Shown: in pieces, positions 1,655 to 29,046 of the stretch
Position numbering within the stretch: the stretch's first letter is position 1
Layout: the number at the start of each line of letters is the position of its first letter
Source: a virus
DNA: 64,000 nt
Strand: one strand, 5' to 3'
Virus record (IMG/VR): IMGVR_UViG_3300045988_130116
Translations under genes and position numbers: made by a program
The notes under the pieces: model-generated
Databases searched by the model: none
What the model was told of the DNA's origin: nothing
Seen by the model: the letters and a program-made list of their open reading frames with translations, nothing else

Positions 1655-2330
1655 GTATTAACTCCTTTCTTAAATCTTTCATTATTCTACGTTCTTTCAT
1701 AGCCAATGTGCTTCTCTTTATTCCTAAAGAATCTGCCAACTGTTGTTGTGTACATTTTTCGTATCCATTTAACCCATATCTTCTTTCTATAAGAAGTTTA
1801 TTGTCTTCTGATAGCATATTTAATATTTTATTAACCAATTCTTTAGTTTCGCTTATTCTTATATTTTTATCAAAATCAACTTCTTCTTTAAGAAAACCTT
1901 CAAAAGAATTGTCGTTTTCTTCGTTCTTTGAAATTTCTGCATTAAAAGAAACCGTTTTTATATTTCTTTTTTCTCTATTAAAAGCATTAATTAATTCATT
2001 TTCTATACTTCTGTAGAAATAAGAGATTGGTTTTTTATCTTTAGAAATCGGAATCTTATTTATCCCTTCCATAAGCCCTAACATTCCTGTCGCCATTAAA
2101 TCCTCTTTAGAATAATTGTTTATATAAAAATTACTAGATATACTTGCCACTAGGGGAGTGAAATTGGCAACTATAGTCTCATAATCTTTATTCATTAAAC
2201 AATTATCTATTTCTTTTTTGGATAAATATTTTCTCAACGAACCACCTCTCTTTAAAGTTCTTATACTATAATTATAACCATTTTTAGATTTTTTATTCAT
2301 TTTTTTGTAATATTTGGCTAATAATGTCAA
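1644..2330 (-). CDS. sigma-70 family RNA polymerase sigma factor (phage-encoded)
   Basis: Region 2-like DLMATGMLGLMEGINK...YFYRSIENELINAF. Region 4 HTH: RRYGLNGYEKCTQQQLADSLGIKRSTLAMKERRIMKDLRKEL. The track start is the TTG inside a TTGACA hexamer; the true start may be the ATG at 2300 (MNKKSKNG). No Shine-Dalgarno precedes either start. Confidence 0.75.
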   Translation of the reverse strand: MTLLAKYYKKMNKKSKNGYNYSIRTLKRGGSLRKYLSKKEIDNCLMNKDYETIVANFTPLVASISSNFYINNYSKEDLMATGMLGLMEGINKIPISKDKKPISYFYRSIENELINAFNREKRNIKTVSFNAEISKNEENDNSFEGFLKEEVDFDKNIRISETKELVNKILNMLSEDNKLLIERRYGLNGYEKCTQQQLADSLGIKRSTLAMKERRIMKDLRKELIHEI

Positions 2331-2375
2331 AATTTTTTTAATTCCATTAAACGCTATTTATTCAAGCACAAAGTC

Positions 2376-2483
2376 AAATAAAGACCCTTACTGCCACCAA
2401 ATAAAGACCTCTATTTTTTGGCTTTTCAAAATTCCAAATAAAGACCTCTTACAAGAGAAAATAAAGACCTCTACAAGAGAAAA
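2376..2483. repeat. four direct copies of AAATAAAGACC(TCT), the last two within a 22-23 bp tandem unit that also repeats ACAAGAGAAAA
   Basis: Copies at 2376-2386, 2399-2412, 2436-2449 and 2459-2472. ACAAGAGAAAA occurs at 2451-2461 and 2473-2483. They lie just upstream of the minus-strand sigma gene in the divergent intergenic region. Confidence 0.8.
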
Positions 2484-2523
2484 TACTGGTTCAGTAATGT
2501 ATGTATATTATATATTTAATATT

Positions 2524-2553
2524 AAATAATAATATATAAATATATTATTATTT
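2524..2553. repeat. perfect 14-bp-arm A/T-only palindrome
   Basis: AAATAATAATATAT (2524-2537), then AA, then ATATATTATTATTT (2540-2553). Confidence 0.75.
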
Positions 2554-2699
2554 TTGCGAAGCTATCGCTCCGGTACATCTTTTTCTTGGTATTTTTTTCT
2601 TTTAATTTAATCCTTATAGTTTAAACGAGATTAATTCTTAACTTGTCGCATAGCATACGCAAACACTATTTTTAAAATTTTTATTTTTTTTCTTTTTTT

Positions 2700-2729
2700 T
2701 TGAATAAAGAGTAAAATTCATGGTATATT
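2700..2729 (+). promoter_or_regulatory. candidate sigma-A-type promoter with extended -10
   Basis: TTGAAT (2700-2705), 18-nt spacer ending in TGg, then TATATT (2724-2729). Confidence 0.3.
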
Positions 2730-2933
2730 AAGAGTATAAGAACAACTGAAAGAATCAATTATTTAATATCTTATGGTGTCTTCTTATAGAGCAAACAGTG
2801 TCAATTATTTTTCCGTTATATTTGGTACATAGACGAAAATAAAAAAATATTTTTAAAAAAAATGAATATATTTCTTAAAACTGGATATAATATTATTAGG
2901 GAGTTAAAAAACTTAATATCTGAGTTGACAACA

Positions 2934-2954
2934 TTCTGATAATTACAATCAGAA
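2934..2954 (+). promoter_or_regulatory. 7-bp inverted repeat next to the RBS of the 2968 gene (operator or leader hairpin)
   Basis: TTCTGAT (2934-2940), AATTACA, ATCAGAA (2948-2954). It is preceded by TTGACA at 2924-2929. Confidence 0.3.
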
Positions 2955-2967
2955 AGTAGGAAAGATA

Positions 2968-4170
2968 TTGTTAGCAAATTACACGTTTAAAGGGAAGATA
3001 GATGGCAAGTCTATTAAAGACTATCAAAACAAAATAGATTTAAGTGTTAAAACAAGCCAAGAGATAATCGACCAAGTGAATAAAATTTTAAATATAGAAG
3101 AGATTAATGGGGTTCAGTTTAATGGTGATTTATTTTGGCAAGTTATTTGGGACGAAGGAGTTTGTAAAGCAGATATAAATACAAACGAATTATGTTGGAG
3201 CAATACAGAAGTATGCAAAACACTAGAGATATTAGCATCGTACATACTTATGAAAGACGATAAAGAAAAAAGAAAAGAATGTAAAATGTATGATGATTAC
3301 AAATTAACAAAAAGAGCAGAAAAAGATAGGGAAAAGGTTTGTCAGATTGGAGTTAACGAAGATGATGAGGTTGTAGTTCTTAAAGATGTAAAAAATTATA
3401 AAAAATACAAGAAAACTACTGTTAATAAATCTGACATTAAAGAATATTCCGAACTTAAATGTTATGATGACTACAAGGAATATATGAAAACCTTATTCCA
3501 TGGTGAAAATGCCAAAGAGAATAGACTTGAGCTGATAGAAAGACTAAAGAATAAGGGTTATGACATTTCTAATGGTAAACTTTATAAATTTGTTAAAACC
3601 ACACTTCCAAGTATATCAGAAGATATGTTAAGTGTTAAATTAAGTAAAACACAACCAATTAAATGGAAACAACCACTTAGAGACAGTCATCAATCATTTA
3701 ATTTTGAAATGTTGGATATGTTTGACCCTCAACAAGTTAAATATGCTTTAGTAACTGATAAAAATTTAGAATTTTCTACTAGAAATGAGTTTTGTATAAC
3801 TCTTGACGAAATTATTAAAAAAACACACCTTACTAAAAATCAAAAGATAATATTAAACAAGTGGAGAAAAGATTGGCAAGTAGTTAAAATAGCAGAATAT
3901 ATGCAAGTAGATGTTGCTTATGTATCTAGGGAAATTGACACAATAGCTAAAAAAATAAGTAATGCCTACATAGACGAATATGAAGAACAATATTATTATA
4001 TGAATTTAGTTAAGGGAACTTATAAGAAATGCTCTTGCTGTGGAGAGAATAAGTTGGTAAAGCATTTTAATAAACATTCTGTAAAGAATGGAGAAATAAT
4101 ATATATGAGTATTTGCTCGGATTGTAGAAAAAAACACCGAGAAAAAAAAGAAAGGAAGAGGAAAAGATGA
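2968..4170 (+). CDS. regulatory protein with a sigma region-4-like HTH and a C-terminal zinc ribbon
   Basis: TTG start after an AGTAGGAAAG RBS-like stretch. LTKNQKIILNKWRKDWQVVKIAEYMQVDVAYVSREIDTIAKKI resembles sigma-70 region 4. C-terminus is CSCCGENK...CSDCRKKH followed by a basic tail. Confidence 0.55.
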   Translation: MLANYTFKGKIDGKSIKDYQNKIDLSVKTSQEIIDQVNKILNIEEINGVQFNGDLFWQVIWDEGVCKADINTNELCWSNTEVCKTLEILASYILMKDDKEKRKECKMYDDYKLTKRAEKDREKVCQIGVNEDDEVVVLKDVKNYKKYKKTTVNKSDIKEYSELKCYDDYKEYMKTLFHGENAKENRLELIERLKNKGYDISNGKLYKFVKTTLPSISEDMLSVKLSKTQPIKWKQPLRDSHQSFNFEMLDMFDPQQVKYALVTDKNLEFSTRNEFCITLDEIIKKTHLTKNQKIILNKWRKDWQVVKIAEYMQVDVAYVSREIDTIAKKISNAYIDEYEEQYYYMNLVKGTYKKCSCCGENKLVKHFNKHSVKNGEIIYMSICSDCRKKHREKKERKRKR

Positions 4171-4454
4171 AAAAGAAAGATTTAATAAAAAGAGTAGCAG
4201 ATAAATGTGATTATTCTCAAAGACAAGTAGAAGAAATGTATGACGTTCTTAAAGATGTTGTAGAGGACGCTATAGCAGATGGTGAAGAATTTAAATTATT
4301 AGGCTTTATAAAAATAGGAACTAAAAAATTAAGTCCTAGAAAAGGTAAAATGACTAATAGATTTGGTGAAGTTGTAGAATGGGAAAGAACAGAAGAAATT
4401 ACTGTTCCAACTGTAGGATTAACTAAATATATAACTAAACGTTTTAAAGAGTAA
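4167..4454 (+). CDS. HU/IHF-family histone-like DNA-binding protein
   Basis: MKKKDLIKRVA...QVEEMYDVLKDVVEDAIADGEEFKLLGFIKIGTKK...PRKG aligns by eye with the HU fold (helix-helix, then beta arm with R-K-G). An ATGA overlap couples it to the upstream gene. Confidence 0.85.
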   Translation: MKKKDLIKRVADKCDYSQRQVEEMYDVLKDVVEDAIADGEEFKLLGFIKIGTKKLSPRKGKMTNRFGEVVEWERTEEITVPTVGLTKYITKRFKE

Positions 4455-4591
4455 TATAGAACTTTAAAAAATGGATAATATGAGCTTATAGACACACACA
4501 GCTAATTTTACATATAACAAGCTACTTTTGGTAAGAGTTAAGTTACTTGTGTCTAGTAATTTTTCATATTATCCTCCAATTTTATTATACT

Positions 4592-4664
4592 TAGGCGATT
4601 ACCGCAATTATTTTATAAAGGAAATTAAAAACAAATTTTTATAACTAGATTAATACATCGCCTA
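4592..4664 (+). other. long-range stem TAGGCGAT/ATCGCCTA enclosing a 57-nt A/T-rich loop, 8 nt upstream of tRNA-like element 1
   Basis: 4592-4599 is the reverse complement of 4657-4664. Confidence 0.5.
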
Positions 4665-4672
4665 GCGAATAT

Positions 4673-4740
4673 GGATATATAGTTTAACAGGCAAAATACT
4701 TACCGGAAAAGAGTTATAGGTTCGAGTCCTATTATATCCT
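4673..4740 (+). ncRNA. aberrant tRNA-shaped element 1 (tRNA mimic or degenerate tRNA)
   Basis: 7-bp acceptor GGATATA/TATATCC. T arm ATAGG-TTCGAGT-CCTAT. The D loop contains GG. The anticodon arm has only 3 Watson-Crick pairs (CTT/AAG), the loop is ACCGGAA with C at position 33, and the variable region is only about 2 nt. Total 68 nt, with no encoded CCA. Confidence 0.55.
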
Positions 4741-4905
4741 CATGATATAACCCCCTTTCAATTATATTATTATACTTAAAGACACATACAGCAATTTTTA
4801 AATACTTTATTTTATAAAAAACAATTTATATTAACTTAAATAGAATTTCATAAATACCTCCTTTGATTTAATGATATGTAAGAATGTGTCTTGTAATACC
4901 TCCTA

Positions 4906-4933
4906 TAGGACTACTGAACGGGAAGTAGTCCTA
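4906..4933 (+). other. 10-bp perfect hairpin 4 nt upstream of tRNA-like element 2
   Basis: TAGGACTACT (4906-4915), loop GAACGGGA, AGTAGTCCTA (4924-4933). Confidence 0.7.
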
Positions 4934-4937
4934 ATAT

Positions 4938-5006
4938 GACAAGGTGGAGTAATGGAAACTCGTTAGATTAATTCTAAAGATGTAGGTTCAAATCCTTCCC
5001 TTGTGA
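4938..5006 (+). ncRNA. aberrant tRNA-shaped element 2 (tRNA mimic with a 5-nt anticodon loop)
   Basis: Acceptor GACAAGG/CCTTGTG with G:G at 1:72. U8 is present. D stem GAGT/ACTC with loop AATGGAA. Perfect 5-bp stem TTAGA/TCTAA closed by the 5-nt loop TTAAT. 4-nt variable region. T arm GTAGG-TTCAAAT-CCTTC. No encoded CCA. Confidence 0.55.
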
Positions 5007-5032
5007 ATATTTAACATTTTACCTTCTTTCTA

Positions 5033-5048
5033 CCCCTCTTTTGAGGGG
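5033..5048 (+). other. GC hairpin 6 nt upstream of tRNA-Thr
   Basis: CCCCTC, TTTT, GAGGGG. Confidence 0.6.
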
Positions 5049-5054
5049 GCTTAT

Positions 5055-5129
5055 GCTGGTGTGGCTCAATGGCAGAGCAGCTGACTTGTAATCAGCAGGT
5101 TGTAGGTTCGACTCCTATCGCCAGCTCCA
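5055..5129 (+). tRNA. tRNA-Thr (anticodon UGU) with encoded CCA
   Basis: Canonical cloverleaf. Acceptor GCTGGTG/CGCCAGC. D arm GCTC-AATGGCA-GAGC. Anticodon arm GCTGA-CTTGTAA-TCAGC. Variable AGGTT. T arm GTAGG-TTCGACT-CCTAT. Discriminator T, then CCA. Confidence 0.9.
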
Positions 5130-5187
5130 AACAATTTATAAAAGATATTAACAGCATAATTAAAATAGTATCTTGAGAGGTGATAAT

Positions 5188-6648
5188 ATGAATAAAACGT
5201 TACTTAAAGAATTAAAAAAGGCAACTAATTATACATATACAGAAAATGGTGGCTTAACACATAAAAGTACTTTAAATAAATGTTATGATTTATTTGCTTT
5301 TGGTGGAGCATCAAGAGGGAAAGGCGAAGAAGATATATTAGATATGTTTTATGATACTTTAAGAGAAGACAAACTGTTAGCGATGAAATTATTGTTTTAC
5401 ATTAGAGATGTAAGAGGTGGGTTAGGAGAGAGAAGAACTTTTAGAATTATTCTTAAATCTTTAGCGAATTCTCATCCTTATTTAATTGAAAAAAATATAG
5501 ATTTAATCCCCTTTTATGGTAGATATGATGATTTATTAGTATTATTCGACACTAAATGTGAAGATAAGATGATTAACTTAATAGCTAAAACATTAATAGA
5601 TGATTGCAGAACTAATCAGCCAACATTGTTAGCTAAATGGTTACCTAGTGAAAATGCCAGTTCTAGTGATTCTAGGAGACTTGCTAGAAAGTTAGCTAAA
5701 AAGCTTTCTCTTACTAATAGAGAGTATCGAAAGACATTATCTAGTATAAGAAATAAAATAAAAATTGTTGAAAATTTATTAAGCGAAAAAAAATATAATG
5801 AAATAGAATTTGATAAATTACCTAGTAAAGCAGGATTAAAATATAGAGATGCTTTTTTAAGACATGAGGAATTATGTACTAGATATGTAGAGTTTATTGA
5901 TAATAAAAATAGTAAAATAAATGCTAAAACTTTATATCCATATGACATAATAAGAAATGTTTGGAATTGTGAGACTCATGAAAGAAAGGTGCTTGATAAA
6001 TACTGGAAAAATTTGCCTGATTATTTTGATGGTAAACCTTGTAGTATATTGCCAGTAATAGATAATTCGGGGTCAATGACTTGGAATTTAAATGGTGGCG
6101 TAATTCCAATAGATGTAGCAGTTTCTTTAGGAATATATTGTGCAGAGAGAAATCTTGGAGATTTCCATAATCACTATATTAGCTTTAGTAGAACTCCTAA
6201 ATTAGTGGAAATAAAAGGCAACAATATAGTTGAGAAAACTTTAAGTGCAGTAAAAAATGTTCTTTATGAGAATACTAATATAGAAGCAGTGTTTGATTTA
6301 ATATTAAAAACTTTAAAGAAAAGTGATTTATCAGAAGAATGCTTGCCTAAACACATTGTTATAATTTCTGATATGGAATTTGATGAAGGAACTAGATGTA
6401 ACGATAGTGTAACATTAATGGAACGTATTAGAAAAGAATGGGCAAAAGAAGGATATACAATGCCAAACTTAGTTTATTGGAATGTGTGTTCTAGGAGAAA
6501 CAATATATCAGATTTAGGAGCAGATAATATTACTTATGTAAGTGGTTGTACTCCAATGATATTTAAGAGCATTATGAGTGGTAAAAATGGTATGGATTTA
6601 ATGTTAGATACATTAAATAGTGATAGATATTCAAGTATAAGAGTATAG
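5188..6648 (+). CDS. DUF2828/UCP015417-type protein: helical N-domain plus C-terminal von Willebrand A domain
   Basis: The ATG at 5188 follows a GAGAGGTGA RBS; the track's TTG at 5173 lies inside that RBS. The N-terminal signature YTENGGLTHKST.NKCYDLFAFGG...LLFYIRDVRGGLGERR is recalled from the DUF2828 family. vWA MIDAS motif VIDNSGSMT and later VIISDMEFD. Confidence 0.7.
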   Translation: MNKTLLKELKKATNYTYTENGGLTHKSTLNKCYDLFAFGGASRGKGEEDILDMFYDTLREDKLLAMKLLFYIRDVRGGLGERRTFRIILKSLANSHPYLIEKNIDLIPFYGRYDDLLVLFDTKCEDKMINLIAKTLIDDCRTNQPTLLAKWLPSENASSSDSRRLARKLAKKLSLTNREYRKTLSSIRNKIKIVENLLSEKKYNEIEFDKLPSKAGLKYRDAFLRHEELCTRYVEFIDNKNSKINAKTLYPYDIIRNVWNCETHERKVLDKYWKNLPDYFDGKPCSILPVIDNSGSMTWNLNGGVIPIDVAVSLGIYCAERNLGDFHNHYISFSRTPKLVEIKGNNIVEKTLSAVKNVLYENTNIEAVFDLILKTLKKSDLSEECLPKHIVIISDMEFDEGTRCNDSVTLMERIRKEWAKEGYTMPNLVYWNVCSRRNNISDLGADNITYVSGCTPMIFKSIMSGKNGMDLMLDTLNSDRYSSIRV

Positions 6649-6662
6649 AGAGGAGATATAAT

Positions 6663-6938
6663 ATGAAAAAAGTGTTACAATTAGATTTTAAAAATGCAAG
6701 TATAGAGGAAGGTTCAAATGGAAAACAGGTTGTCGAATACGATAAAGAATTGTTACCTTTGTATACAAGAAGTTTAGATAAAGTGTTGGAAGATATAGAA
6801 GAAGAACAAGAGTTGCAACTTAAATTAAATATAAAACTTCCTCTTTCTCAATTTAGATTGCTCACTGATTTCCTAGTAGATTGTTCAGATTTAAACTTAT
6901 TCGATTTGCAAATAAAATCAGTAGAACAAGATGACTAA
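6663..6938 (+). CDS. hypothetical acidic protein
   Basis: ORF track. GAGGAG RBS upstream. 8-nt overlap with the next gene. Confidence 0.6.
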   Translation: MKKVLQLDFKNASIEEGSNGKQVVEYDKELLPLYTRSLDKVLEDIEEEQELQLKLNIKLPLSQFRLLTDFLVDCSDLNLFDLQIKSVEQDD

Positions 6939-8094
6939 TATGGAAAAGTATAATACGAAACAAAAAGAACAGATGATTAAATTGTCCCTACAAAAATTAA
7001 GTGGGGACGATGAAGTAGATTGGGAAGATATAATAGATAGTCTAGGAATAAGTTTACATAAAGATACTTTAAGACGATGGGCAAGAGGAATGCAGATTTA
7101 TGATGAATATCTTAAAGAAACAAAACGCAAGTCTGTAAGAGACGATTCAGAAAAAACAATAAAAAAAATATTAGAATTAAAACAACAAAGAATTTTATTA
7201 TCTGATGAAAAGAGATATGTAAATGAGAGACTTAGAGAACTAACAAGAGTAGAAGATTTCTATAAGAAGCTAGAAGATAAAATATCAAGTAGCGACCCTG
7301 TTCAACTAAGAGAGATTGAGTTTAGTGATAAAACGAATGAAGCAGTATTAATGTTATCTGATTGGCATTATGGAATAGAAGTTGACAACAAAGTTAATAA
7401 ATTCAATTCAGAGATAGCAAATAGTAGAGTTTCTGAATTAGCGGGTAAAGTTATAAAACATTGTAAAATAAATGACGTGAGTAAATTAAATATATTTTGT
7501 TTAGGAGATTTAATATCTTCTGAAATTCACACTATTATTAAAATGGAAAATAGAGAAGATTTATCTACTCAAATATATGAAGTAAGTGAACTTCTTTCAA
7601 AATTTATAGAGACAGTATCGAAAGTTGTTCCGATAGAAGTTACATTTACTTTTGGAAATCATGAGAGAACGGGATTAAAAGACTTATCTAAAGATAGCGA
7701 TAATTTTACAATTCTTATAGAAAAATATGTTATGCTTCTTTTAAGGGATAATGAGAATGTTATTATCAATAGTAGTGAAACAAATTCAGATATTATATAT
7801 AAAAACATTATGGGAAATGACTTTGTTGGAGTTCATGGACATCAAGAAAAAAGAAAAGGTGTTGCTCCTGATTTAAGTGCAATCCTGAGTGGTAGAAATG
7901 TCGATTATGTATGCATGGGGCATTTACATTCTCAATGTAATTATATTGATAATACATCAGAAGTTTTTATAAATGGAAGTTTATGTGGCACAGATGCCTA
8001 TGCTTATGGGAAGAGATTGTTTTCTCCCCCTAGTCAAAAGTTATTGATAGTTAATGACGAAGGTGTTGAATGTATCTACAATATTAAAGTTTAG
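6931..8094 (+). CDS. calcineurin-like metallophosphoesterase with a roughly 130-aa N-terminal extension
   Basis: Ordered motifs LSDWHYG (DxH), CLGDLIS (GD), FGNHERTG (GNHE), VHGHQ (H) and CMGHLHS (GHxH). Confidence 0.75.
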   Translation: MTNMEKYNTKQKEQMIKLSLQKLSGDDEVDWEDIIDSLGISLHKDTLRRWARGMQIYDEYLKETKRKSVRDDSEKTIKKILELKQQRILLSDEKRYVNERLRELTRVEDFYKKLEDKISSSDPVQLREIEFSDKTNEAVLMLSDWHYGIEVDNKVNKFNSEIANSRVSELAGKVIKHCKINDVSKLNIFCLGDLISSEIHTIIKMENREDLSTQIYEVSELLSKFIETVSKVVPIEVTFTFGNHERTGLKDLSKDSDNFTILIEKYVMLLLRDNENVIINSSETNSDIIYKNIMGNDFVGVHGHQEKRKGVAPDLSAILSGRNVDYVCMGHLHSQCNYIDNTSEVFINGSLCGTDAYAYGKRLFSPPSQKLLIVNDEGVECIYNIKV

Positions 8095-28687: not shown

Positions 28688-28711
28688 AAACTATGCAGGT
28701 GAATGTAAATT

Positions 28712-29046
28712 AGTCGCCTAGTAATACAAGCGATTGTATTATTTAACCTTTTGAATTGACTGGGAAACCCTTAGAGACTTAATACTACAACATAGCTAGA
28801 AATGGCAAGTGTGAATGTTTGAAAAATTTAAGGATTGGGTAATCAGCAGGTAAGATTCCCTATTGTAAAATACAATGAGAATAAACTCCAACGACTATTT
28901 TCGGCAGAAAAGTACACTCAAGCGAGTGGAAGTGGAAGGCTCTTGTTTTATAACAAGATGAAGATATAGTCTCGACTTCTAGTGAAAGCTAGAGAAGTTC
29001 ATAAGAGAACTGTATGAGAAGTAGCGAACTCATATGAAGATAATCG
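28712..29046 (+). ncRNA. group I intron, copy 2 (no ORF), homologous to copy 1
   Basis: R-like CTCCAACGACTATT (28886-28899). P8 is CTTGTT-TTAT-AACAAG. S-like GAAGATATAGTCTCG (28960-28974). Hairpin TATGAG-AAGTAGCGAA-CTCATA shows compensatory changes relative to copy 1. Terminal G at 29046 lies directly before the in-frame AAC AAC TTT GCA.... Confidence 0.7.

What the first reader, a model, noticed from the sequence alone, without database searches (positions are those of the whole stretch)
4455..6648. Two tRNA mimics plus one real tRNA directly upstream of a Ro60-like-architecture (helical + vWA) protein: candidate phage Y-RNA-like RNP module
**What the sequence shows**
- A 720-bp non-coding block holds three tRNA-shaped elements. 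Each is preceded within 4-8 nt by a hairpin.
- Only the third (5055-5129) is a canonical tRNA: Thr, anticodon UGU, encoded CCA.
- Element 1 (4673-4740) has good acceptor and T arms. Its anticodon arm has only 3 Watson-Crick pairs, it has C33, and its variable region is about 2 nt.
- Element 2 (4938-5006) has good D and T arms and a perfect 5-bp anticodon stem closed by a 5-nt loop (TTAAT). It therefore cannot present an anticodon. It also has a G:G at 1:72.
- The T arms of all three are nearly identical (TAGGTTCGAGTCCTAT, TAGGTTCAAATCCTT, TAGGTTCGACTCCTAT).
- The next gene encodes a helical N-domain (a signature I recall as DUF2828/UCP015417) fused to a vWA domain with an intact MIDAS motif (DNSGS).

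**Established knowledge**
- Ro60/Rsr proteins are a helical TROVE ring plus a vWA domain.
- In bacteria and some phages they are encoded next to Y RNAs (YrlA) whose effector domain mimics tRNA.

**Inference**
- This locus may be an analogous RNA-chaperone or RNA-decoy module built on a different helical family.
- Possible roles include tRNA-damage or anticodon-nuclease defence evasion, or RNA quality control.
Basis: partly seen in the sequence, partly recalled or inferred. Interest (0 to 1): 0.8.

Follow-up and report, generated by a model that had tools for sequence, protein, structure and literature searches.

The report
Phage tRNA array beside Ro60-like protein

Summary
Window 4455-5187 is non-coding and carries three tRNA-shaped elements, each preceded by a stem-loop.

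- **e3 (5055-5129):** a normal tRNA-Thr(UGU) with encoded CCA.
- **e2 (4938-5006):** has a 5-nt anticodon loop, a G1·G72 mismatch and no CCA. It aligns to a normal tRNA-Met(CAU) at the same position in 82%-identity relatives, so it is a tRNA-Met derivative that lost 2 nt. I cannot tell a pseudogene from a re-used RNA.
- **e1 (4673-4740):** the real novelty. This tRNA-like RNA has only a 3-bp anticodon stem, or none. It is conserved down to 61% protein identity, with 7 covarying pairs.
- **Protein (5188-6648):** DUF2828+DUF7788. It has no sequence match to TROVE, but its AlphaFold model matches only Ro60 structures over its full length.
- **Linkage:** homologs sit on the same strand next to tRNA arrays in 56 of 65 metagenomic loci. 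Among 13 GenBank phages chosen to represent separate groups, 10 have a tRNA within about 3.5 kb.

The Ro60-like fold and tRNA adjacency were already noted for Bas63 gp130 (33% identical). That protein counters the Ppl defence even in tRNA-less T7. Short e1-like RNAs also occur in contigs with no such gene in the stretch fetched. A dedicated Y-RNA-like particle is therefore plausible but unproven.

The parts
4167..4454 (+). HU-type DNA-binding protein gene. In this clade the array always starts just after it.
   Evidence: Pfam Bac_DNA_binding, E = 1.5e-12. The same gene precedes e1-like elements in L107 and L110.
4489..4555 (+). Stem-loop SL-A. The stem UAGACAC/GUGUCUA is conserved while the interior varies.
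   Evidence: Alignment A4: the stems are invariant and the interior has diverged in L003. Fold.
4556..4599 (+). Invariant block holding the best sigma-70-like match (TTCATA, 17 nt, TATACT) and a CCTCC motif. A probable promoter for e1.
   Evidence: 9 of 12 positions match. Invariant in relatives down to 82% protein identity. The promoter function is inferred.
4591..4665 (+). Stem-loop SL-B, a 9-bp stem UUAGGCGAU/AUCGCCUAG around a variable 57-nt interior. It ends 7 nt before e1.
   Evidence: RNAfold z = -2.25. The stem is invariant and the interior is 66% identical to L007.
4673..4740 (+). e1: a conserved tRNA-like RNA with a truncated, 3-bp anticodon stem. It cannot decode and has no encoded CCA.
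   Evidence: Rfam tRNA 49.0 bits, no ARAGORN call. Family members found down to 61% protein identity. 99.5% of cells paired, 7 pairs with changes on both sides, 0 of 500 shuffles as good. 92.8% identical to L007, against 72% at third codon positions.
4764..4778 (+). Second copy of the ATTATTATACTTA block, a possible -10 element for the e2 unit.
   Evidence: Direct repeat D7. Conserved. The function is inferred.
4779..4892 (+). Stem-loop SL-C. The stem AAGACACAU/AUGUGUCUU is a paralog of SL-A.
   Evidence: Direct repeats D3 and D6. Fold.
4906..4933 (+). Hairpin SL-D, a 10-bp stem 4 nt upstream of e2.
   Evidence: Inverted repeat I11. z = -3.56. Two compensatory pairs in L007.
4938..5006 (+). 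e2: a tRNA-Met(CAU)-derived element with a 5-nt anticodon loop, G1·G72 and U·U mismatches, and no CCA.
   Evidence: Rfam 49.1 bits. ARAGORN calls it 'Leu(taa)'. It aligns to the canonical tRNA-Met of L007 with a 2-nt loop deletion, at 70.8% identity. Found only in relatives with at least 86% protein identity.
5033..5048 (+). Hairpin SL-E (CCCCUC UUUU GAGGGG), 6 nt upstream of e3.
   Evidence: z = -2.95. Invariant. No U tract, so it is not called as a terminator.
5055..5129 (+). e3: canonical tRNA-Thr(UGU) with encoded CCA. This slot is exchangeable.
   Evidence: Rfam 70.6 bits and an ARAGORN call. Replaced by tRNA-Ser(GCU) in L002, L003 and L006, by Trp+Tyr in L007-9 and by Gly in L111.
5188..6648 (+). 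Ro60-like ring protein (DUF2828 helical domain plus DUF7788 vWA domain with an intact MIDAS site), 486 aa.
   Evidence: Pfam and PHROG 850. AlphaFold pLDDT 89, pTM 0.88. Foldseek top 12 PDB hits are all Ro60. 33% identical to Bas63 gp130.
6931..8094 (+). Metallophosphoesterase, annotated 'exonuclease' in PHROG 284. A syntenic neighbour whose role is unknown.
   Evidence: The same neighbour occurs in Tsamsa, 6ec and L107-L111. No informative PDB or NCBIfam match.

Best explanation
This is the start of a phage tRNA array that is co-oriented with, and probably co-transcribed with, a very divergent Ro60-type ring protein.

**Shown**
- The array consists of three parts:
  - e1, a conserved tRNA-like RNA that keeps the acceptor/T minihelix and the D/T elbow but has only a 3-bp anticodon stem, or none in some relatives;
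  - e2, a tRNA-Met derivative with a crippled anticodon loop;
  - a swappable genuine tRNA.
- Each element is preceded by a conserved stem-loop.
- The protein is predicted to fold as a Ro60-like helical ring plus a vWA domain with an intact MIDAS site.
- Its homologs lie beside tRNA arrays in many unrelated phage lineages, sometimes alongside RtcB, RNA ligase, CCA-adding enzyme or phosphoesterase genes.

**Inferred**
- By analogy with Ro60, which binds structured or misfolded RNAs and tRNA-like Y RNAs, the protein acts on tRNA-shaped RNAs made from the array. These could be precursors, misfolded or nuclease-damaged tRNAs, or e1.
- Its role would be to chaperone them, protect them or hand them to host nucleases or repair enzymes, so that translation continues under host attack.
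- Whether e1 is its dedicated cofactor is left open.
For: - **Fold:** pLDDT 89. The top 12 PDB matches are all Ro60 or TROVE structures: Thermus phage phiLo, Xenopus, human and Deinococcus. TMq is 0.43-0.61 over 507-588 alignment columns. The next hits cover only the vWA domain, at TMq about 0.22. The viral structure library also returns TROVE and 'Ro-like' phage proteins.
- **MIDAS:** the site is invariant.
- **Linkage in metagenomic loci:** 56 of 65 IMG/VR loci with at least 3.5 kb of upstream flank have a same-strand tRNA within 6 kb upstream, against 3 downstream. That is 426 tRNAs upstream against 11 downstream, and 425 of the 426 are on the gene's strand.
- **Linkage in GenBank phages:**
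  - FO1a and Bas63: 25 or more tRNAs start about 170 nt downstream.
  - Listeria P100: 17 tRNAs upstream, with RtcB and RNA ligase downstream.
  - Campylobacter F372: 3 tRNAs, the nearest 225 nt upstream.
  - Bacillus Tsamsa: 21 tRNAs upstream.
  - Enterococcus VRE9_2: the gene is embedded in the array.
  - A tRNA also lies within about 3.5 kb in KVP40, Finnry, 6ec, LAh_6, phiM12 and Synechococcus B23.
  - CBB has RNA ligase adjacent and a CCA-adding enzyme nearby.
- **e1 is under selection:**
- **A second case:** an armless 57-nt tRNA-like element lies 109 nt upstream of the Enterococcus homolog.
- **Precedents:** Ro60 genes sit next to tRNA-like YrlA RNAs in 254 bacteria and 22 phages (PMC4201824). 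The phiLo phage Ro60 binds RNAs encoded upstream of it, together with host PNPase (PMC12135203). Bas63 gp130 deletion gives a defence-dependent phenotype (PMC11482910).
Against: - No binding or expression data exist for this locus.
- There is no sequence-level TROVE match: none at E up to 10 against Pfam for 39 family members, and none in a profile search of PDB sequences. Homology rests on a predicted fold with TM about 0.6.
- Bas63 gp130 rescues T7, which has no tRNA genes, and also works from a plasmid. Phage-encoded RNAs are therefore not needed for that activity.
- Three lineages have no tRNA within 5-8 kb: Fusobacterium FNU3, CBB and Lak-B4.
- No single RNA partner is conserved across lineages.
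- Part of the metagenomic linkage could be inherited gene order within one large clade, and the loci were not dereplicated.
Confidence: 0.5

Rival explanations
1. e1, and perhaps e2, are dedicated Y-RNA-like cofactors that bind the ring protein to form a stable particle, which gates or tethers a host nuclease as in the Ro60/Y RNA/PNPase complex.
For: - e1 is a selected, non-decoding tRNA mimic encoded 447 nt upstream on the same strand.
- An armless tRNA-like element lies 109 nt upstream of the Enterococcus homolog, and truncated ones lie in L061 and L082.
- There is precedent in YrlA and in the phiLo Yrl1/Yrl2 RNAs.
Against: - e1 and e2 are not permuted and have no terminal stem of the kind that binds Ro60. 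No RNA family other than tRNA gave a credible match.
- In L110, 13 tRNAs and 2.5 kb separate e1 from the gene. e1 tracks the HU-gene end of the array, not the protein gene.
- Most homolog loci have only canonical tRNAs.
- e1-like RNAs occur in contigs with no such protein in the stretch fetched.
- gp130 acts without phage RNAs.
Confidence: 0.2
2. The adjacency involves no direct RNA interaction. The protein is a stand-alone anti-defence or host-takeover factor that merely shares an early or accessory region with tRNAs. e1 is a tRNA-like processing handle, meaning an RNase P/RNase Z cleavage site that separates the HU mRNA from the array, as mascRNA or mitochondrial tRNA punctuation does. e2 is a dying tRNA gene.
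For: - gp130 alone counters Ppl in T7 and from a plasmid.
- e1 is always the first element after the HU gene.
- e1 keeps exactly the parts that RNase P, RNase Z and the CCA-adding enzyme recognise, namely the acceptor/T minihelix and the elbow.
- The stem-loops just upstream of each element would protect the new 3' ends.
- e2 is only 70.8% identical to its tRNA-Met counterpart, which is about the neutral level, and has two broken pairs.
- Short tRNA-likes occur in unrelated contexts.
Against: - Same-strand adjacency recurs across Ounavirinae, Herelleviridae, Eucampyvirinae, Joanripponvirinae, Straboviridae and others. With about 130-270 genes per genome this is very unlikely without functional coupling.
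- The family also neighbours RNA-repair genes.
- A Ro60 fold has no known function that is not RNA-related.
Confidence: 0.25
3. e1 and e2 are decoys or sponges for host tRNA-targeting defences (anticodon nucleases such as PrrC, RloC, the PARIS effector or retron-linked nucleases) or for tRNA-binding host enzymes, and act independently of the ring protein.
For: - Phage tRNAs are known to offset tRNA-cleaving defences (general knowledge; reviews listed).
- e1 and e2 keep the tRNA body but alter exactly the anticodon arm.
- The anticodon-loop sequence of e1 varies between relatives (ACCGGAA, GUCGGGA, AUCGGAA, UUUAGAA) while the body is conserved.
Against: - An anticodon nuclease recognises the anticodon loop and stem. 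A 3-bp stem, or no arm at all (L110, L100), removes the feature a decoy would need.
- There is no direct evidence.
Confidence: 0.08

Closest known systems
Bas63 (Escherichia phage JohannRWettstein, Felixounavirus) gp130
   Same: - Same protein family: 33% identity over the full length, E = 2e-85.
- It sits on the same strand directly beside the tRNA array.
- Its Ro60-like structure has been noted, and the authors speculated that some neighbouring 'tRNAs' are Y RNAs (PMC11482910).
   Different: - In Bas63 the gene lies upstream of an array that is annotated entirely as canonical tRNAs. Here it lies downstream of an array that starts with a conserved non-decoding tRNA-like RNA.
- gp130 has an experimental phenotype: it counters Ppl and can be transferred to T7. 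Nothing has been tested for this phage.
Bacterial Rsr (Ro60) with YrlA/YrlB Y RNAs and the rsr-yrlBA-rtcBA RNA-repair operon
   Same: - A ring protein plus vWA domain with a MIDAS site.
- tRNA-like RNAs encoded within a few kb on the same strand.
- RtcB or RNA ligase nearby in some phage homolog loci, for example P100 and CBB (PMC4201824).
   Different: - The protein has no detectable TROVE sequence signature.
- YrlA is a permuted tRNA mimic whose 5' and 3' ends form the helix that binds Ro60. e1 and e2 are plain cloverleaves with free acceptor ends, and no RNA family other than tRNA gave a credible match.
Thermus phage phiLo Ro60 with Yrl1/Yrl2 (PDB 9KOP, 9L5Y)
   Same: - A phage-encoded Ro60 with small RNAs encoded just upstream.
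- The best structural match to the model here: E = 9e-9, TMq 0.58 (PMC12135203).
   Different: - The phiLo protein is described by its authors as a Ro60 homolog found through UniProt.
- Its RNAs are stem-bulge-stem Y-RNA-like molecules with a CGAA motif, not cloverleaves.
tRNA-like processing elements (MALAT1 mascRNA, mitochondrial tRNA punctuation) and tRNA minihelices
   Same: e1 keeps the acceptor/T minihelix and elbow, which suffice for RNase P, RNase Z and the CCA-adding enzyme (established knowledge). It also sits at a gene/array boundary.
   Different: No processing data exist here. Those systems are eukaryotic or organellar.

Membership tests
Ro60 / TROVE (Rsr) proteins | Closed ring of HEAT-like helices followed by a vWA domain | tested here: met
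   AlphaFold model with pLDDT 89. The top 12 Foldseek PDB hits are all Ro60, aligned over the full length at TMq 0.43-0.61. This rests on a predicted structure only.
Ro60 / TROVE (Rsr) proteins | MIDAS motif (DxSxS...T...D) in the vWA domain | tested here: met
   D292, S294, S296, T363 and D395 are invariant in 39 homologs.
Ro60 / TROVE (Rsr) proteins | Sequence match to the TROVE domain (Pfam PF05731) or to solved Ro60 sequences | tested here: not met
   No TROVE hit at E up to 10 in any of 39 family members. phmmer and a profile search against PDB sequences find no Ro60.
Ro60 / TROVE (Rsr) proteins | Binds Y RNA on the outer ring surface and threads single-stranded 3' ends through the central hole | not testable with these tools
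   Needs biochemistry or a solved structure.
DUF2828/DUF7788 phage family (PHROG 850, 'Ro-like RNA binding protein') | Matches to both Pfam models and to PHROG 850 over the full length | tested here: met
   DUF2828 E = 5e-24, DUF7788 E = 9e-33, PHROG 850 E = 5e-129. 711 GenBank phage records hold homologs.
YrlA-type bacterial Y RNA | 5' and 3' ends pair into a long stem that carries the Ro60-binding site, with a permuted tRNA-like domain at the other end | tested here: not met
   e1 and e2 align end to end with the standard tRNA model, positions 1-71. No RNA family other than tRNA gave a credible match when matches up to E = 10 were listed.
YrlA-type bacterial Y RNA | tRNA-like D and T arms able to form the elbow | tested here: met
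   e1 has U8, A14, G18G19 and the T loop UUCGAGU. Helices supported by covariation.
YrlA-type bacterial Y RNA | Encoded within about 4 kb of the Ro60 gene on the same strand | tested here: met
   e1 ends 447 nt and e2 ends 181 nt upstream of the ATG at 5188, on the same strand.
Canonical decoding tRNA | 5-bp anticodon stem and 7-nt loop with U33 and a purine at position 37 | tested here: not met
   - e1 has a 3-bp stem and C33.
- e2 has a 5-nt loop, or a 4-bp stem with U37 in ARAGORN's reading.
- e3 meets the feature.
Canonical decoding tRNA | Cloverleaf with 7-bp acceptor, D arm and T arm, scoring above the Rfam tRNA threshold | tested here: met
   49.0, 49.1 and 70.6 bits against a threshold of 29.
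Canonical decoding tRNA | Aminoacylation and use in translation | not testable with these tools
   Needs acid-gel northern blots or charged-tRNA sequencing.

The most novel reading that the evidence does not exclude
A large clade of sequence-divergent Ro60-type ring proteins (DUF2828/DUF7788), present in hundreds of phages and in giant viruses, guards viral tRNA arrays. Anticodon-arm-truncated or armless tRNA-like RNAs such as e1 would be their Y-RNA equivalents. Protein and RNA would form a particle that recruits host nucleases or repair enzymes to keep tRNA pools functional, or to blind tRNA-sensing defences, during infection.
Probability: 0.2. Interest if true: 0.75.

Novelty: new variant of a known kind. 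Interest (0 to 1): 0.55.

Why it matters
- **The link itself:** Ro60 with tRNA-like Y RNA is a conserved but poorly understood RNA-surveillance pairing. Here a family recognisable only by predicted structure (711 GenBank phage records, and giant viruses too) is wired to tRNA arrays across many phage lineages. That suggests the Ro60-tRNA connection is far broader than the TROVE-annotated cases.
- **A candidate ligand:** the e1 family gives a concrete, testable RNA. It is a minimal 'top-half' tRNA under purifying selection.
- **Why it could pay off:** one family member already counters a bacterial defence (Ppl). Working out the RNA connection could explain how, and could explain why phages carry odd 'pseudo-tRNAs'.
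- **What tempers it:** the central idea has already been voiced for Bas63, and no experiment ties e1 or e2 to the protein.

Tried and rejected
- **Near-identical phages:** megablast of 4300-6700 against GenBank phages found nothing. Context came from IMG/VR and assembly look-ups instead.
- **Sequence homology to Ro60:** phmmer and a profile search against PDB, plus Pfam at E up to 10, gave nothing. I had no Ro60 alignment for a profile-profile test.
- **Y-RNA families:** the Rfam search listing matches up to E = 10 returned only tRNA and chance-level matches.
- **Hairpins as intrinsic terminators:** rejected. There are no U tracts and the scan found none.
- **Coding potential of the block:** only ORFs of 22-38 aa on the + strand. 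The minus-strand mini-ORFs behind perfect Shine-Dalgarno sites (MKNY*, MKFYLS*) are not conserved as peptides. This is left unexplained.
- **e1 as an attP-type tRNA fragment:** rejected. It has both acceptor strands and no integrase is nearby.
- **CGAA / GNCGAA motif:** 'GCGAA' lies just before e1, but it fails the YrlA motif at the first position and is expected by chance.
- **e2 selection test:** L111 (86% protein identity) is uninformative because identity along the locus is mosaic, 60-100% per 100 nt.
- **Downstream metallophosphoesterase:** no informative PDB or NCBIfam match.
- **e1 homologs by BLAST:** none outside the clade. Structure-based searches were needed.


Full report
**1. What is in the sequence.**
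The window is about 27% G+C phage DNA. Its gene order is sigma factor, HU, non-coding block, DUF2828 protein, metallophosphoesterase, ClpP protease and terminase.

Positions 4455-5187 contain no credible ORF. The Rfam tRNA model hits three places above its gathering score: 4673-4740 (e1, 49.0 bits), 4938-5006 (e2, 49.1 bits) and 5055-5126 (e3, 70.6 bits). ARAGORN calls e3 as tRNA-Thr(UGU). It calls e2 as 'tRNA-Leu(UAA)' and does not call e1.

Each element is preceded by a stable structure. None has a U tract, so none is called as a terminator. The block also contains two paralogous units. Each unit has a large stem-loop with a conserved UAGACAC/GUGUCUA stem, a CCTCC motif and a TATACT box.

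**2. Close relatives show what each element is.**
Nine IMG/VR loci and four assembly contigs encode the same protein at 61-99% identity.

- **e3** sits in an exchangeable slot. It is Thr or Ser in the closest relatives, Trp+Tyr in L007-9, Gly in L111, and a whole array in L110.
- **e2** occupies the position of a canonical tRNA-Met(CAU) in L007-9.
  - The two sequences align end to end. e2 differs by a 2-nt deletion in the anticodon loop, G1·G72 in place of U1:A72, a U·U pair in the T stem and loss of the encoded CCA.
  - Three other changed pairs are compensated.
  - Overall identity is 70.8%, close to the 72% seen at third codon positions of the adjacent gene.
  - e2 exists only in relatives with at least 86% protein identity. 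The L111 comparison is uninformative because the locus is a recombination mosaic.
  - e2 is therefore a recently crippled tRNA-Met. I cannot tell a pseudogene from a re-used RNA.
- **e1** is different.
  - It is present in every relative down to 61% protein identity, and it is always the first element after the HU gene.
  - Across ten distinct sequences the cloverleaf is 99.5% paired. Seven pairs change on both sides, none of 500 shuffles does as well, and the controls that shift the pairing partner by 1-3 columns collapse to 44-63% paired.
  - Its anticodon stem is always 3 bp, with one compensated pair, and closes a 7-nt loop whose sequence drifts. In L110 the whole arm is missing, giving a 57-nt element.
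  - e1 is 92.8% identical between the window and L007. Third codon positions are 72% identical and the interior of the upstream stem-loop is 66% identical.
  - e1 keeps U8, A14, G18G19 and a standard T loop, so the elbow and the acceptor/T minihelix are preserved.
  - It is a selected tRNA-shaped RNA that cannot work as a decoder.
- **The hairpin before e2** has two compensated pairs in L007.

**3. The protein.**
Pfam sees DUF2828 and DUF7788. PHROG 850 is labelled 'RNA-binding protein'.

No sequence method links it to TROVE or to solved Ro60 chains.

An AlphaFold model built from 39 homologs is confident (pLDDT 89, pTM 0.88). Its 12 best PDB matches are all Ro60 structures aligned over 507-588 columns. 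They include Thermus phage phiLo, Xenopus, human and Deinococcus Rsr, at TMq 0.43-0.61 and E values from 1e-8 to 1e-6. Everything below them matches only the vWA domain.

The MIDAS residues are invariant.

The viral structure library shows the same family in giant viruses. It also returns TROVE and 'Ro-like' phage proteins at TMq about 0.5-0.57.

I therefore file the protein as Ro60-like by predicted architecture, not as a demonstrated TROVE family member.

**4. Linkage to tRNAs elsewhere.**
tblastn finds homologs in 711 GenBank phage records from many host genera.

Among 65 IMG/VR loci at 42-48% identity with at least 3.5 kb of upstream flank, 56 have a same-strand tRNA within 6 kb upstream and 3 have one downstream. 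In total there are 426 tRNAs upstream and 11 downstream, and all but one upstream tRNA are on the gene's strand. These loci were not dereplicated and may share inherited gene order.

The pattern repeats in separate lineages:

| Phage | tRNA context |
|---|---|
| FO1a / Bas63 (Felixounavirus) | array starts about 170 nt downstream |
| Listeria P100 | 17 tRNAs upstream; RtcB, RNA ligase and phosphoesterase downstream |
| Campylobacter F372 | 3 tRNAs, nearest 225 nt upstream |
| Bacillus Tsamsa | 21 tRNAs upstream |
| Enterococcus VRE9_2 | gene embedded in the array |
| KVP40 | array 3.4 kb upstream |
| Mycobacteriophage Finnry | tRNA-Tyr 1.2 kb upstream |
| Staphylococcus 6ec | tRNA-Pro 1.7 kb downstream |
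| Aeromonas LAh_6 | nearest tRNA about 1 kb upstream |
| Sinorhizobium phiM12 | tRNAs about 2 kb on both sides |
| Synechococcus B23 | tRNAs 0.6 kb downstream and 1.2 kb upstream |
| Fusobacterium FNU3, Lak-B4 | none within 5-8 kb |
| Pectobacterium CBB | none, but RNA ligase adjacent and CCA-adding enzyme 3.5 kb away |

Being the immediate neighbour of the array has a chance of roughly 1-2% per genome. Repeating that in five or more unrelated lineages is not plausible by chance.

**5. Is there a conserved RNA partner?**
A covariance model of e1 (R1) and a strict pattern scan both pointed to the same extra elements. The pattern scan gave no hits in five shuffles. The elements are an armless 57-nt tRNA-like RNA 109 nt upstream of the Enterococcus VRE9_2 homolog, and 65-nt truncated ones in L061 and L082.

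Most homolog loci show only canonical tRNAs.

A collection-wide pattern search for the e1 signature also found 62-66-nt truncated or armless tRNA-likes in four other contig families. None has a DUF2828 gene in the 5-15 kb fetched. They lie next to replication genes or a terminase, sometimes with one tRNA and a PHROG 547 phosphoesterase.

So e1-type RNAs are a wider, apparently undescribed class of phage RNA. They are not strictly tied to this protein.

**6. Literature.**
- YrlA-type tRNA-mimicking Y RNAs flank TROVE Ro60 genes in 254 bacteria and 22 phages (PMC4201824).
- The phiLo phage Ro60 binds two RNAs encoded upstream of it, together with host PNPase (PMC12135203).
- Iyer and colleagues list ROT/TROVE proteins among the RNA-repair genes of jumbo phages (PMC7824862).
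- SEA-PHAGES annotates cluster L homologs as 'Ro-like RNA binding protein', and LeBron gp53 is toxic when overexpressed (PMC13148394).
- Most relevant is the PhageMaP preprint (PMC11482910).
  - It reports that Bas63 gp130 is Ro60-like in structure and lies directly upstream of the tRNA genes.
  - It reports that gp130 counters the Ppl defence, and it speculates that some of those 'tRNAs' are Y RNAs.
  - I confirmed that gp130 is a full-length homolog: 33% identity, E = 2e-85.
  - gp130 also rescues T7, which has no tRNAs, and works from a plasmid. That activity therefore does not need phage-encoded RNAs.
- 'DUF2828' itself appears in no phage paper in the library.

**7. Interpretation.**
- **Shown:** the anatomy, selection on e1, the origin of e2, the Ro60-like predicted fold and the cross-lineage tRNA linkage.
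- **Inferred:** the protein acts on tRNA-shaped RNAs from the array. I put this at about 0.5.
- **The main rival** gets about 0.25. In it the protein is a stand-alone anti-defence factor, e1 is an RNase P/RNase Z processing handle at the boundary between the HU gene and the array, and e2 is a relic.
- **A decoy role** against anticodon nucleases is unlikely, because the arm such enzymes recognise is the part that has been removed.

**8. Verdict.**
The main idea is already in the literature for a homolog.

Two things are new here. One is the e1 family of top-half tRNA mimics, supported by covariation. The other is the breadth of the tRNA-array linkage.

I rate this a new variant of a known kind, with moderate interest.

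Noticed in passing
window 28705-28994 (+): Group I catalytic intron, Rfam RF00028 at 81.5 bits, covering the full model. The host gene was not examined.
   Followed up: no
L056 608-1210, L081 167-746, L087 1433-2045: ROOL RNA (RF03087, 232-294 bits) lies 4-5.8 kb upstream of the DUF2828 gene on the same strand. These three loci have few or no tRNAs in that region.
   Followed up: no
L100 7827-7883 (Enterococcus phage VRE9_2, PP680568): Unannotated 57-nt tRNA-like element with perfect acceptor, D and T arms but no anticodon arm. It lies 109 nt upstream of that phage's Ro60-like gene and overlaps a doubtful 39-codon annotated ORF.
   Followed up: partly
L133 2724-2787, L164 8645-8708 (-), L173 7553-7616, L137 261-325, L138 3418-3483, L169 4551-4612: Short (62-66 nt) tRNA-like elements with truncated or absent anticodon arms, in viral contigs with no DUF2828 gene in the stretch fetched. 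Some are followed by a single tRNA and a PHROG 547 phosphoesterase. This looks like a wider, undescribed class of phage mini-tRNA-like RNAs.
   Followed up: partly
L046 946-980 and 1464-1503: A tRNA-Thr homologous to window e3 is split by about 480 nt at the anticodon region, probably by an intron.
   Followed up: no
L025, L026, L029, L032, L041, L047, L048, L055, L060, L062, L067-L071 and others (upstream arrays): Many arrays next to DUF2828 genes carry suppressor-type tRNAs with anticodon CUA or UCA, which ARAGORN labels 'Pyl' or 'SeC'. This suggests phages that reassign stop codons.
   Followed up: no
L096 (Listeria phage P100, NC_007610) 1710-7370: The RefSeq record annotates the tRNAs on the strand opposite to gp165. 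ARAGORN places all 17 on the same strand as the gene.
   Followed up: yes
window 4573-4577, 4857-4861, 4899-4903; block 4556-4599: Three CCTCC motifs on the + strand. ACCUCCUUU (4856-4864) equals the 3' end of 16S rRNA. On the minus strand two of the motifs form perfect Shine-Dalgarno-plus-ATG starts of 4- and 6-codon ORFs that are not conserved as peptides. Block 4556-4599 is invariant down to 82% protein identity. Whether this is a promoter, an antisense leader or an anti-Shine-Dalgarno mimic is unresolved.
   Followed up: partly
L096 10771-14555; L105 2940-4196 and 9914-11029; L101 13115-14038: RNA-repair genes cluster near the Ro60-like gene in several phages. These are RtcB-type 'tRNA splicing ligase', RNA ligases and CCA-adding tRNA nucleotidyltransferase. 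The arrangement echoes the bacterial rsr-yrlBA-rtcBA operon.
   Followed up: partly
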